From Coriobacteriia bacterium (lineage in GTDB: Bacteria; Actinomycetota; Coriobacteriia; Coriobacteriales; UBA8131): 11,050 bases of DNA. The stretch's first letter is position 1, and every line of letters begins with the position of its first letter. Location of the stretch: NCBI GenBank assembly GCA_009784425.1, contig WRBR01000061.1, positions 1-11,050 of the forward strand, written 5' to 3'. The position numbers and the translations under genes were made by a program. The notes under the pieces are model-generated. The model saw only the letters and a program-made list of their open reading frames with translations. It was not told where the DNA came from and did no database searches. This document shows positions 8,322 to 9,860 of this stretch, one piece after another.

Positions 8322-8344
8322 AAAAAACCGCCGAAAGGCGGTTT
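8322..8344 (-). terminator. Rho-independent terminator on the minus strand (stem CCGCC/GGCGG, GAAA loop, with a U6 tract on the minus strand) that serves the tRNA gene remnant
   Basis: The plus strand reads AAAAAACCGCCGAAAGGCGGTTT. On the minus strand this gives a hairpin followed by TTTTTT, beginning 6 nt after the tRNA CCA end. Confidence 0.7.
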
Positions 8345-8350
8345 GAAAGT

Positions 8351-8399
8351 TGGTCGCGGGGATTGGATTTGAACCAATGACCTTCGGGTTATGAGCCCG
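8351..8399 (-). tRNA. Partial tRNA-fMet (initiator, anticodon CAT) 3' segment, 49 nt: anticodon stem-loop CGGG-CUCAUAA-CCCG, variable loop, T-arm and acceptor 3' strand with ACCA. The 5' half is absent. It looks like an att-site direct repeat or pseudo-tRNA.
   Basis: The reverse complement reads CGGGCTCATAACCCGAAGGTCATTGGTTCAAATCCAATCCCCGCGACCA. This is nearly identical in pattern to the 3' 49 nt of E. coli tRNA-fMet, including the three G-C pairs of the anticodon stem. Upstream sequence cannot form an acceptor 5' strand (CGCGGGG absent) or a D-arm. Confidence 0.6.
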
Positions 8400-8502
8400 T
8401 GTTTTCGTGTGCTGCCTAGTTCTGCCTGGTACCGGATAATGTTGCTAAACCGCAGGTAGATAGCTAAATAGTATCGCATGTCATTTTTTGATGTTTGAGC
8501 GA

Positions 8503-8541
8503 TTGCCCACTTATTGCCCATCTAGGCTCGAGTTTGCCCAC
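8503..8541 (+). promoter_or_regulatory. Three direct repeats of TTGCCCA(C), spaced 11 and 20 bp apart, just upstream of int. They are candidate arm-type integrase binding sites and/or part of the int promoter.
   Basis: gaTTGCCCACttaTTGCCCAtctaggctcgagtTTGCCCACcg, read directly. The integrase has an N-terminal arm-binding-type domain. Confidence 0.4.
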
Positions 8542-8588
8542 CGATAATGATATGCTAGCACTACTGATAGTAACTCAGAAGGGCAATC

Positions 8589-9860
8589 ATGGCAAGGGCA
8601 AAGACCAAGGACACTGAGCCGAAGAAGAATAGAGAGCGTGCCAGCCGCGGTGAGGGTGAGATCATCGAAGTACAGCGTGGACAGGTTTATCGAATCCGCC
8701 CCAGACTCGGCAAGGATCCCAAGACAAACAGATACCTCAAGGCTCCCATGCGTACGGTATATGGCAACAAGGCAGAGGCGCGACGCCAGATGGTGATTTA
8801 CAAGGATGAGCTGCGCGAAGAAGCTATGCATAAAGGGCGCAAGCTTACTGTTGGTGCTTATGCGAGGCAGTTTCAAGATCAGCGGCGTAGCCTGGGCAAT
8901 CTCTCGCCTTTGACCATTGAGCGAGACGAGATCGAGACTCACAAGATTGAGGAATTGTTTGGTGAGGTGGGAATCAGCAAGCTCACCGTTGGGGTAATCA
9001 ATGAGGAGTATGCGAAGCTACGCACTGATAACAAGGTTTCGAAAAGCCAGCTACACAAGCTCCATGCCAAGCTGAGGCAGGTTCTCAAGCAGGCAGTAAA
9101 GGAAGAGATAATCACCAAGAACCCTTGCGACGCTATCGAACTCACGAGACCCAGAAGCGCTGAACGGAAAAGCCTAACCGTGGCAGAGGCTACAAAACTG
9201 GCCAAGGATCTGCGCAAAGAGGAACCAAGTGGAAGGATAGTTGCTCTATGGATCGGCCTGGCAACAGGCATCAGAAGAGGAGAAGCGCTCGGTCTGTCGT
9301 GGAAGCACGTTGATCTGGAGCATAAACGAATCTATATCGCCCAGCAGCTCGCCAACGACCTCACACTCAGAGAGCCAAAAAGCGATAACGCGAATCGCTG
9401 GATAGGTCTGGACGACGAAACAACCGAGTATCTTCAGAGCTGGAAGGAGCTCCAACGGCAACAGCTCGCAGATATGGATATCGAGCAGAAGCCCAACACA
9501 CCAGTAGTCACCAACGAGTTGGGCGGCGCTACTGACCCCAACAACTTCTCACGCTGGCGCCGAGACTTCTTTGCCGACCACGGCCTTGGCTACTTCGAGC
9601 ACGAAGAGATCTACACCGACCCCAGCGGCACCAGGCATGTCAAGCGAAGTGGCTATCGCGGCTACAACTTTCACGAATTACGTCACACACAAGCCACCCT
9701 GCTCATCGGCAGTGGAGCTGACATCAAGACCGTCCAGCACCGCCTCGGCCACTCAACAGCAAGCCTTACCATGGACATCTACGCTCACGCGATAGCCCAA
9801 AATGATCGCACCGCAGCTGATACAATCGGAGAAACGATATTCGGGAACGATAAAGCATGA
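8589..9860 (+). CDS. int: Tyrosine-type site-specific integrase with an N-terminal AP2/arm-DNA-binding-like domain
   Basis: The catalytic signature is present: R (GIRRGEALGLSW), the H-x-x-R box (HELRHTQAT), HRLGHS, and the Y nucleophile (MDIYAH). The N-terminal basic segment RGEGEIIEVQRGQVYRIRPRLG...YLKAPMRTVYGNKAEARRQ resembles the arm-binding domains of phage integrases. The RBS GAAGGG sits 5 nt upstream. Confidence 0.9.
   Translation: MARAKTKDTEPKKNRERASRGEGEIIEVQRGQVYRIRPRLGKDPKTNRYLKAPMRTVYGNKAEARRQMVIYKDELREEAMHKGRKLTVGAYARQFQDQRRSLGNLSPLTIERDEIETHKIEELFGEVGISKLTVGVINEEYAKLRTDNKVSKSQLHKLHAKLRQVLKQAVKEEIITKNPCDAIELTRPRSAERKSLTVAEATKLAKDLRKEEPSGRIVALWIGLATGIRRGEALGLSWKHVDLEHKRIYIAQQLANDLTLREPKSDNANRWIGLDDETTEYLQSWKELQRQQLADMDIEQKPNTPVVTNELGGATDPNNFSRWRRDFFADHGLGYFEHEEIYTDPSGTRHVKRSGYRGYNFHELRHTQATLLIGSGADIKTVQHRLGHSTASLTMDIYAHAIAQNDRTAADTIGETIFGNDKA

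What the first reader, a model, noticed from the sequence alone, without database searches (positions are those of the whole stretch)
8322..9860. Half a tRNA-fMet gene plus its terminator marks the junction of an integrated element. The integrase lies 190 bp away.
tRNA-fMet homology begins exactly at the 5' side of the anticodon stem and runs to ACCA (49 nt), then into a textbook intrinsic terminator. No 5' acceptor strand or D-arm exists upstream. This is the signature left by an element that integrated into the 3' half of a tRNA gene. The duplicated 3' segment sits at the distal junction with the original chromosomal terminator still attached. The element body lies on the 5' side, which here is to the right and contains int. 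The intact tRNA-fMet should therefore lie beyond the right edge of the window on the minus strand.
Basis: partly seen in the sequence, partly recalled or inferred. Interest (0 to 1): 0.7.

Follow-up and report, generated by a model that had tools for sequence, protein, structure and literature searches.

The report
Mobile-element junction in initiator tRNA gene

Summary
Window 8351-8399 (-) is an exact 49-nt copy of the 3' part of a tRNA-fMet gene, from the anticodon stem to ACCA. It has no 5' half, is followed by an intrinsic terminator (8325-8344) and lies 189 nt from a tyrosine integrase gene (8589-9860).

A metagenome contig 100% identical to the window carries the intact tRNA-Met(CAT) gene on the minus strand, 18.2 kb to the right.

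There is one addition: a third copy of 45 nt lies between them, so the site holds a tandem array.
- **E1** is 13.4 kb, bounded by the 49-nt and 45-nt copies. It carries int, an HTH/PIN toxin-antitoxin pair, an excisionase-like HTH, NikA-like and MobA/VirD2 relaxase genes, a Sau3AI-type restriction-modification system with Vsr, and a Dsr1-like protein. It has no phage genes and no mating-pore genes, so it is an integrative mobilizable element.
- **E2** is 4.7 kb, has no integrase and lies next to the intact tRNA gene.

Each element has its own short repeat motif clustered at both of its ends; these are candidate arm-type integrase sites. A related integrase (86% aa) sits next to the same 49-nt fragment in another Coriobacteriia genome, and homology stops exactly at ACCA. 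No empty site or excised circle was found, so present-day mobility is inferred. This is a new member of a known kind, of low general interest.

The parts
8315..8344 (-). Intrinsic terminator after the displaced tRNA fragment: stem-loop 8325-8344, then a T-rich tail. It is inferred to be the original chromosomal terminator of the tRNA-fMet gene.
   Evidence: Terminator scan and fold. Homology with the related elements L026 and L051 ends at ACCA and does not include this hairpin.
8351..8399 (-). Displaced 49-nt 3' fragment of tRNA-fMet (canonical positions 28-76). This is the distal att junction of element E1, with the core identity block.
   Evidence: There are exact repeats at L010 14046-14090 (45 nt) and within the intact gene at L010 18829-18905.
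8400..8588 (-). Int-proximal arm of E1 (P arm), lying between the core and int.
   Evidence: About 80% conserved with L026 and L051. Homology begins at the tRNA end and runs through int.
8500..8540 (-). Cluster of three TGGGCAA motifs (8503-8509, 8514-8520, 8534-8540), two of them 11 nt apart. These are candidate arm-type integrase-binding sites. 8500-8520 is a 21-nt perfect direct repeat of a sequence at the other end of E1.
   Evidence: 12 copies in L010 against 4.0 expected, with 5 of them in the two end clusters. repeat D12: L010 748-768 = 13955-13975. The motifs are conserved in three related elements.
8589..9860 (+). Tyrosine integrase of E1 (423 aa).
   Evidence: Pfam PF00589 and a SAM-like N-terminal domain. 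Motifs RRGE229, KSD264, HELRH362, GHST387 and DIYAH396 are present, and dN/dS against the L051 orthologue is about 0.05.
9987..10385 (+). HTH_17 protein, the probable antitoxin partner of the PIN gene that follows (inside E1).
   Evidence: Pfam; gene calls.
10382..11050 (+). PIN_3 domain protein (240 aa in full), cut by the window end. Probable toxin of an element-stabilising pair (inside E1).

Best explanation
Window 8351-8399 is the displaced 3' fragment of the initiator tRNA-Met gene, marking the distal junction of a 13.4-kb integrative mobilizable element (E1).

**How the junction arose (inferred from the established mechanism).** E1's attP carried a 49-nt copy of the tRNA 3' part. Its tyrosine integrase recombined this copy with the tRNA gene, most likely within the anticodon-loop region. 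That regenerated an intact gene at one end of the element. At the other end it left the chromosomal 3' fragment, still attached to its own terminator, next to int.

**The site is a tandem array.** Read in the direction of the tRNA, the order is:
1. intact tRNA-fMet
2. E2 (4.7 kb, no integrase)
3. 45-nt copy
4. E1
5. 49-nt copy
6. chromosomal terminator
7. flank (Gp49/HTH toxin-antitoxin pair, WYL proteins)

**What each element supplies.** Each element brings its own terminator hairpin directly after the tRNA sequence at its tRNA-proximal end. Each also has its own short repeat at both ends, presumably arm-type sites for its own integrase: TGGGCAA in E1 and ACTATCAC in E2.

**E1's gene content.** E1 encodes int, an HTH_17/PIN_3 stabilising pair, an excisionase-like HTH_17 protein, a NikA-like accessory protein and a MobA/VirD2 relaxase. 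It has no mating-pore genes. It would therefore excise as a circle and borrow another element's conjugation machinery. Its cargo is defence genes: a Sau3AI-family endonuclease, a C5 methylase, Vsr and a Dsr1-like 1194-aa protein.

**Shown versus inferred.** The anatomy, the repeats, the intact tRNA gene, the gene content and the conservation of the int/fragment unit in another genome are shown. Excision, transfer, the exact crossover point and the role of the arm motifs are inferred.
For: - **Three co-oriented copies on one contig.** The 49-nt, 45-nt and full 77-nt copies all lie on the minus strand of L010. L010 is 100% identical to the window over their overlap. The same 45-nt copy and intact gene recur in a second sample (L011).
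- **Repeat spacing.** The direct-repeat spacing is 13,447 bp for E1 and 4,783 bp for E2.
- **Int next to the fragment.** The integrase has complete catalytic motifs and dN/dS of about 0.05 against an 86%-identical orthologue.
- **Independent genome.** In MAG Emb289P3bin142 the intact tRNA is at contig position 73846-73922. The same 49-nt fragment is at 93274-93322, next to the orthologous int. Homology with the window breaks exactly at ACCA, and a different sequence follows.
- **Arm motifs.** They cluster at both ends of each element and are conserved.
- **Terminators.** A terminator-like hairpin follows each of the three copies.
- **Mobilisation genes and cargo.** Relaxase PF03432 at 4e-33 and NikA-like at 5e-13; restriction-modification system and Dsr1-like cargo. 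No match to phage or mating-pore (type IV secretion) families in any E1 protein scanned (int, PIN_3, the 403-aa protein, the 91-aa HTH_17 protein, NikA-like, relaxase, the MutH/Sau3AI-like endonuclease and the 1194-aa protein with Pfam; a subset also with NCBIfam and PADLOC); small ORFs were not scanned.
- **Published principle.** The 'regenerated tDNA plus displaced fragment' rule and tandem arrays are described in PMC4383910. IMEs, CIMEs and accretion are described in PMC5704250.
Against: - **No empty site.** No empty attB was found: 0 hits for the predicted uninterrupted tRNA+terminator sequence in the metagenome and genome collections. Every contig that carries the left-flank proteins and extends past the junction is occupied; the two short contigs (L006, L009) stop before it.
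- **No excised form.** No attP junction was found in viral contigs.
- **No variation between samples.** E1 is 100% identical and in the same place in all five samples, so recent movement is not documented.
- **Unknown proteins.** The 403-aa and 1194-aa proteins have no clear family, so a hidden transfer function cannot be fully excluded.
- **Order of insertion.** The order in which E1 and E2 inserted cannot be deduced from the junctions.
- **Left flank.** The left flank (toxin-antitoxin pair, WYL proteins) is itself accessory-looking. 'Chromosome' is inferred only from the absence of further att copies within 8.3 kb.
Confidence: 0.9

Rival explanations
1. The island is a fixed, no-longer-mobile relic. 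The junctions are genuine integration scars, but E1 no longer excises or transfers.
For: No empty site and no circular junction was found. E1 is identical and in the same place in all samples. The neighbouring E2 has clearly decayed and has no int.
Against: - The integrase is full length, has all its catalytic motifs and is under strong purifying selection.
- Both att repeats are perfect.
- The arm motifs are intact and conserved.
- The relaxase module is intact.
- The database holds only a handful of samples of this organism, so the absence of empty sites is weak evidence.
Confidence: 0.2
2. The whole 18.2-kb interval (E2 + E1) is one composite element that moves as a unit. The 45-nt copy is an internal relic of an earlier accretion.
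For: Transfer of CIME-ICE/IME composites is documented elsewhere (PMC5704250). The E2-E1 arrangement is the same in two samples (L010 and L011).
Against: - In the same sample (3300010167), E2's distal junction is also found joined to a different sequence, not E1 (L017).
- In Emb289P3bin142 the E1-like element is next to the tRNA and an E2-type arm lies beyond it, so the order is reversed.
- E1 and E2 have different arm motifs.
Confidence: 0.1
3. The element is a prophage or a phage satellite, not a conjugatively mobilizable element.
For: The closest annotated integrases are from phages and streptococcal satellite prophages, at only 27-29% identity. The flank carries a Gp49-type gene.
Against: The complete 13.4-kb element has no capsid, portal, terminase, tail or lysis gene. 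It does have a relaxase and a NikA-like accessory protein. There is no nucleotide match in the phage collection. The Gp49 gene lies outside the att repeats.
Confidence: 0.04
4. The fragment is a decayed tRNA pseudogene or a chance duplication, unrelated to the integrase.
For: None beyond the absence of a 5' half.
Against: The fragment is 49/49 identical to the live gene, and the repeat boundaries coincide with the element ends. The same fragment travels with the orthologous int in another genome.
Confidence: 0.01

Closest known systems
tDNA-integrated genomic islands as defined by Islander (Hudson, Lau and Williams 2015, PMC4383910; Williams 2002 sublocation classes)
   Same: There is a regenerated tRNA gene plus a co-oriented displaced 3' fragment marking the island ends, and a tyrosine integrase inside. 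The identity block starts at the anticodon stem or loop, which is the 'anticodon-centred' class A (2083 of 3919 Islander islands). The site holds a tandem array.
   Different: The second member of the array has no integrase, so Islander's strict tandem rule (each member with its own int) is not met for E2. The host is an uncultured termite-gut Coriobacteriia and the target is the initiator tRNA.
Integrative mobilizable elements (IMEs) with CIME accretion, e.g. IME_Sag2603_tRNAlys and the ICESt1/ICESt3-CIME tandems of streptococci (review PMC5704250)
   Same: It has a single tyrosine integrase targeting the 3' part of a tRNA gene, and a relaxase with an accessory protein but no mating-pore genes. 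It also carries a toxin-antitoxin pair and defence cargo, and sits in tandem with an integrase-less element bounded by att sites.
   Different: The integrase is at most about 30% identical to any annotated one. E2 carries a different arm motif from E1, so cis-mobilisation of E2 by E1's integrase, which is the defining behaviour of a CIME, is doubtful. Nothing has been tested experimentally.
Bifidobacterium prophage-like elements integrated in a tRNA-Met gene (Ventura et al. 2005; recalled from memory, not checked here)
   Same: An actinobacterial host, a tyrosine integrase and a tRNA-Met target.
   Different: Those are prophages; this is a relaxase-bearing element without phage genes. The relationship between the integrases was not tested.

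Membership tests
tDNA-integrated genomic island (Islander definition) | An intact tDNA and a fragment of the same tDNA on one replicon, in the same orientation | tested here: met
   L010 599-647, 14046-14090 and 18829-18905 are all on the minus strand. L010 is identical to the window over their overlap.
tDNA-integrated genomic island (Islander definition) | An integrase gene inside the interval | tested here: met
   Int at 8589-9860, PF00589.
tDNA-integrated genomic island (Islander definition) | An unoccupied site in a relative, or an observed excision product | tested here: inconclusive
   0 hits for the predicted attB and for attP in viral contigs. Only about 5 samples of this organism are available.
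Anticodon-centred (class A) attP sublocation | The identity block begins at the anticodon stem or loop and runs to the 3' end | tested here: met
   The E1 block starts at position 28 and the E2 block at position 32.
Anticodon-centred (class A) attP sublocation | Strand exchange within the 7-nt anticodon loop | not testable with these tools
   This needs in vitro recombination or hybrid-site mapping.
Tyrosine recombinase / phage-type integrase | Catalytic R-K-H-R-H/W-Y set and C-terminal catalytic domain | tested here: met
   PF00589 at 2e-18. Motifs RRGE229, KSD264, HELRH362, GHST387 and DIYAH396 are present.
Tyrosine recombinase / phage-type integrase | Arm-type binding sites flanking the core in attP | tested here: inconclusive
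   TGGGCAA clusters lie at both ends of E1 and are conserved in relatives. Binding has not been tested.
Integrative mobilizable element (IME) | Its own integration/excision module | tested here: met
   Int is present. The 91-aa HTH_17 protein is only a candidate excisionase.
Integrative mobilizable element (IME) | A relaxase and/or oriT for mobilisation | tested here: met
   PF03432 relaxase at 4e-33 and NikA-like/MobC at 5e-13. The oriT was not located.
Integrative mobilizable element (IME) | No complete mating-pore (type IV secretion) system or coupling protein of its own | tested here: met
   E1 is fully delimited at 13.4 kb. No such family matched in the Pfam, NCBIfam or PADLOC scans. Two proteins (403 aa and 1194 aa) remain without a clear family.
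Integrative mobilizable element (IME) | Demonstrated excision and mobilisation by a helper | not testable with these tools
   This requires an experiment.
Prophage | Virion structural, packaging and lysis genes | tested here: not met
   None among the E1 or E2 genes. There is no nucleotide match to phages.
CIME (cis-mobilizable element), for E2 | Bounded by att sites, with integration and transfer genes lost | tested here: met
   E2 lies between the 45-nt copy and the intact gene. tblastn finds no int remnant. Its genes are a Zn-ribbon protein, an HATPase_c_4 protein and an 83-aa protein.
CIME (cis-mobilizable element), for E2 | Mobilisable by the integrase of the adjacent element | not testable with these tools
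   The arm motif differs from E1's (ACTATCAC against TGGGCAA), which argues against it.

The most novel reading that the evidence does not exclude
Termite-gut Coriobacteriia host a family of initiator-tRNA-specific mobilizable elements that stack at the gene in interchangeable order. All share one core (the tRNA 3' part). Each member has a private arm-site code and brings its own replacement terminator for the tRNA. In occupied genomes the cell's initiator tRNA gene would then be terminated by mobile-element DNA, and neighbouring elements would be insulated from each other's integrases.
Probability: 0.45. Interest if true: 0.3.

Novelty: new member of a known kind. Interest (0 to 1): 0.2.

Why it matters
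For annotation, it fixes the exact left end of a genomic island at window 8351 and explains a tRNA fragment that gene finders skip. It also shows that the genes to the right of 8400 are mobile-element cargo rather than core genome: a toxin-antitoxin pair, a Sau3AI-type restriction-modification system and a Dsr1-like protein. For biology, it adds an uncharacterised family of mobilizable elements, from a poorly studied host group, to the many known tRNA-targeting islands. The two-element array with distinct arm motifs is a tidy natural example of accretion at one att site. It does not open a new question.

Tried and rejected
- **Empty site.** The exact predicted attB (uninterrupted tRNA plus the 8322-8344 terminator) gave 0 hits in metagenome contigs and genome contigs. 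Exact-protein look-ups of four left-flank proteins returned only occupied or truncated contigs.
- **Candidate empty site in a relative.** MAG Nt197P3bin113 (L025/L055) has an intact tRNA followed by a simple terminator. It shares no synteny with either flank of the window, so it cannot serve as an attB reference.
- **Excised form.** The P-arm+core pattern (AACA followed by the 49-nt block, without any P'-arm sequence) gave 0 hits in viral contigs.
- **Prophage idea.** Megablast of the whole window against phages found nothing. tblastn of the integrase found only relatives at ≤30% identity among full-length matches, and the plasmid collection gave a similar result.
- **Integrase relic in E2.** tblastn at E ≤ 10 found none.
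- **Further att copies on the left.** A short-word blast of the tRNA against the window and the longer loci found none.
- **Order of insertion.** Deducing whether E1 or E2 inserted first from the junction sequences was rejected, because both orders give the same junctions.
- **Not attempted.** A fold prediction or deep homology search of the 1194-aa and 403-aa proteins was not done; it is not needed for this finding.
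Full report
**Observation**

On the minus strand, window 8399→8351 reads CGGGCTCATAACCCGAAGGTCATTGGTTCAAATCCAATCCCCGCGACCA. This stretch contains the 3' four pairs' worth of an anticodon stem, a CAU anticodon loop, the variable region, a perfect T arm (ATTGG/TTCAAAT/CCAAT), the 3' acceptor strand and ACCA.
- Six bases further on lies an 8-bp GC-rich hairpin with a T-rich tail (8344-8325). 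The terminator scan finds it and it forms in the minimum-energy fold.
- No tRNA is called here by ARAGORN or by a permissive Rfam scan, so the 5' half is really missing.
- The 49-mer is unique in the window, and no shuffle produces it even with 3 mismatches allowed.
- The ORF at 8589-9860 (+) is a 423-aa tyrosine integrase (Pfam PF00589 at 2e-18). It has the motifs RRGE229, KSD264, HELRH362, GHST387 and DIYAH396.

**Finding the other end**

Exact-protein look-ups placed the window on several metagenome contigs. None showed a second copy within 10 kb of int.

To reach further, I used the N-terminal part of a 1194-aa protein that ran off the end of those loci. This recovered the full protein, P0001, which a source names 'MAG: hypothetical protein FWD93_00340 [Coriobacteriia bacterium]'. 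I then looked up the contigs that encode it.

Locus L010 (ERZ27257297:k141_1020737) is 100% identical to window 7753-11050. Window position equals L010 position plus 7752. L010 carries three co-oriented copies of the tRNA 3' sequence on the minus strand:
- 599-647, which is the finding (49 nt, tRNA bases 29-77 of 77);
- 14046-14090 (45 nt, bases 33-77, starting at the first base of the anticodon loop);
- 18829-18905, a complete tRNA-Met(CAT), called by ARAGORN and by Rfam tRNA at 64.5 bits.

The same 45-nt copy and intact gene are seen in a JGI contig from another sample (L011).

The intact gene has G29-31:C39-41 and A11:U24, the hallmarks of an initiator tRNA, with a U1-G72 wobble (read). It lies 18.2 kb from the fragment.

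**Anatomy of the array**

The middle copy divides the interval into two elements.

E1 has a repeat spacing of 13,447 bp. It runs from window 8351 to what would be position 21842. Its genes are:
- int;
- an HTH_17 + PIN_3 pair;
- a 403-aa protein of unknown family;
- a 91-aa HTH_17 protein, which is an excisionase-type fold;
- a NikA-like/MobC accessory protein;
- a MobA/VirD2 relaxase (PF03432, 4e-33);
- a Sau3AI-family endonuclease (464 bits, above the NCBIfam cut-off);
- a C5 methylase;
- Vsr;
- the 1194-aa protein, which has a partial match to the defence protein Dsr1 (2.5e-18).

E1 has no phage structural genes, no mating-pore (type IV secretion) genes and no coupling protein. It therefore fits the definition of an integrative mobilizable element (PMC5704250).

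E2 has a spacing of 4,783 bp. It encodes a Zn-ribbon protein, an HATPase_c_4 protein and an 83-aa protein. It has no detectable integrase remnant (tblastn).

**Features of the junctions**

Each of the three tRNA copies is followed by a terminator-like hairpin.
- After the 49-nt copy it is the simple hairpin of the finding.
- After the 45-nt copy and after the intact gene it is a related 12-13-bp hairpin, CAGGTCAGAGGC...GCTTCTGGCCTG plus a T-rich tail.
- This second type recurs after the tRNA sequence in several other termite-gut Coriobacteriia contigs. It therefore belongs to the elements' tRNA-proximal arms, and the elements supply the terminator of the regenerated gene.

E1 carries clusters of TGGGCAA near both ends, all in the same orientation and partly spaced 11 nt apart.
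- The clusters are at window 8503-8540 and at L010 13958-13990, and they include a perfect 21-nt direct repeat (D12).
- TGGGCAA occurs 12 times in L010 against 4.0 expected, and 5 of these fall in the two clusters.
- The three int-side motifs are conserved in two related elements, while the surrounding intergenic sequence varies.

E2 has a different motif, ACTATCAC.
- It occurs three times at 11-nt spacing near the 45-nt copy and once near the intact gene.
- In all there are 5 copies in L010 against 0.48 expected (D2).

I read these as arm-type integrase sites. That is an inference from the lambda-type integrase paradigm. It implies that the two elements share core specificity but answer to different integrases.

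**Comparative evidence**

A scan for the 45-mer in the metagenome and genome collections (analysed) showed that MAG Coriobacteriia Emb289P3bin142 has an equivalent arrangement.
- The intact tRNA-fMet is at contig position 73846-73922. The same 49-nt fragment is at 93274-93322, both on the plus strand.
- An integrase 86% identical to the window's lies directly next to the fragment.
- Nucleotide homology with the window starts at the ACCA end of the fragment and runs through int. It does not include the window's terminator or left flank.
- What follows the fragment there is an E2-type arm, so the order of element types is reversed.

In sample 3300010167, E2's distal junction is also found joined to a different sequence that carries a methyltransferase gene (L017). 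These variants show that the fragment belongs with int as part of a movable unit, and that the array composition differs between strains.

The integrase is under strong purifying selection between the two lineages (dN 0.095, dS saturated at about 2.1).

**What was not found**

- The predicted uninterrupted tRNA+terminator sequence has no exact match in either collection.
- All contigs that carry the left-flank proteins are occupied or too short.
- No circular junction turned up in viral contigs.
- E1 is 100% identical in six contigs from five samples.

Current mobility is therefore inferred, not shown. The order in which E1 and E2 inserted cannot be recovered, because both orders predict the observed junctions.

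**Comparison with what is known**

[quoted passage not shown] In that database anticodon-centred sites account for 2083 of 3919 islands, and 125 tandem arrays are recorded (PMC4383910).

An IME in tandem with an integrase-less element bounded by att sites is the accretion scenario reviewed for streptococcal IMEs and CIMEs (PMC5704250). The integrase has only about 25-30% identity to annotated phage, satellite and plasmid integrases, so the element family itself is undescribed.

**Verdict**

This is a new member of a known kind. Interest is low (0.2).

Noticed in passing
window 8233-8283 and 2650-2725: A 50-nt near-perfect palindrome (GACAGGGG(G/A)ACGGTTCTTCTGTCTC|GAGACAGAAGAACCGTCCCCCTGTC) lies between the HTH gene and the tRNA terminator. 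It recurs as a double copy at 2650-2725, where contig L002 differs from the window by a 24-nt indel. It looks like a REP-type dispersed intergenic palindrome, and it is what produces the spurious microRNA hits in Rfam. A different palindrome family that shares the string CAGGGGGACGG flanks the intact tRNA gene (L010 18985-19100).
   Followed up: partly
window 7008-7104 (+): ARAGORN calls a 97-nt 'tRNA-Pro(cgg)' inside ORF 6394-7452, in a Gly/Ala/Thr-rich linker (GAGDGVGTGTGAEAGAEAG). Rfam gives no tRNA hit there, so it is almost certainly a false positive.
   Followed up: partly
window 5138-7452 (+) and 7598-8213 (+): Two tandem WYL-domain proteins (418 and 352 aa; PADLOC WYL, Pfam WYL weak) are followed by a Gp49 (HigB-like)/HTH_3 toxin-antitoxin pair, directly outside the island. 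The left flank may itself be an accessory or defence region. Metagenome assemblies break near here: the JGI contigs overlap at the start of the Gp49 gene, and a Logan contig ends in the palindrome.
   Followed up: no
L010 10001-13585 (inside E1, beyond the window): A 1194-aa protein has no Pfam or NCBIfam family. Residues 653-924 match the C-terminal part of the PADLOC Dsr1 model (2.5e-18), but no SIR2 domain was detected. Only two distant homologues turned up in 5.8 billion proteins. It may be a variant defence protein, and it sits next to a Sau3AI-type restriction-modification system with Vsr.
   Followed up: partly
L017 1-1342 (JGI 3300010167, Ga0123353_10764379): This is a variant junction in the same sample. 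E2's arm and the 45-nt copy are followed not by E1 but by about 170 nt and a class I SAM methyltransferase gene. An 11-nt match to the tRNA 3' end (CCCCGCGACCA) lies 1.2 kb further on, in the same orientation. It may be a third small island or remnant.
   Followed up: partly
L051 6451-6589 (-), MAG Emb289P3bin142: A short remnant of an integrase C-terminus (aa 381-420, up to 81% identity) lies about 1.2 kb beyond the 49-nt fragment. This indicates a further decayed element in that genome's array.
   Followed up: no
L010 18829-18905 (-): The initiator tRNA has a U1-G72 wobble instead of the C1xA72 mismatch of E. coli. Its last 45 nt are identical to those of the tRNA-fMet genes of unrelated rumen MAGs labelled Spirochaetales or UBP6. 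In those MAGs the gene is followed by a plain T run, with no element arm after the tRNA (only the sequence adjacent to the tRNA was examined).
   Followed up: no
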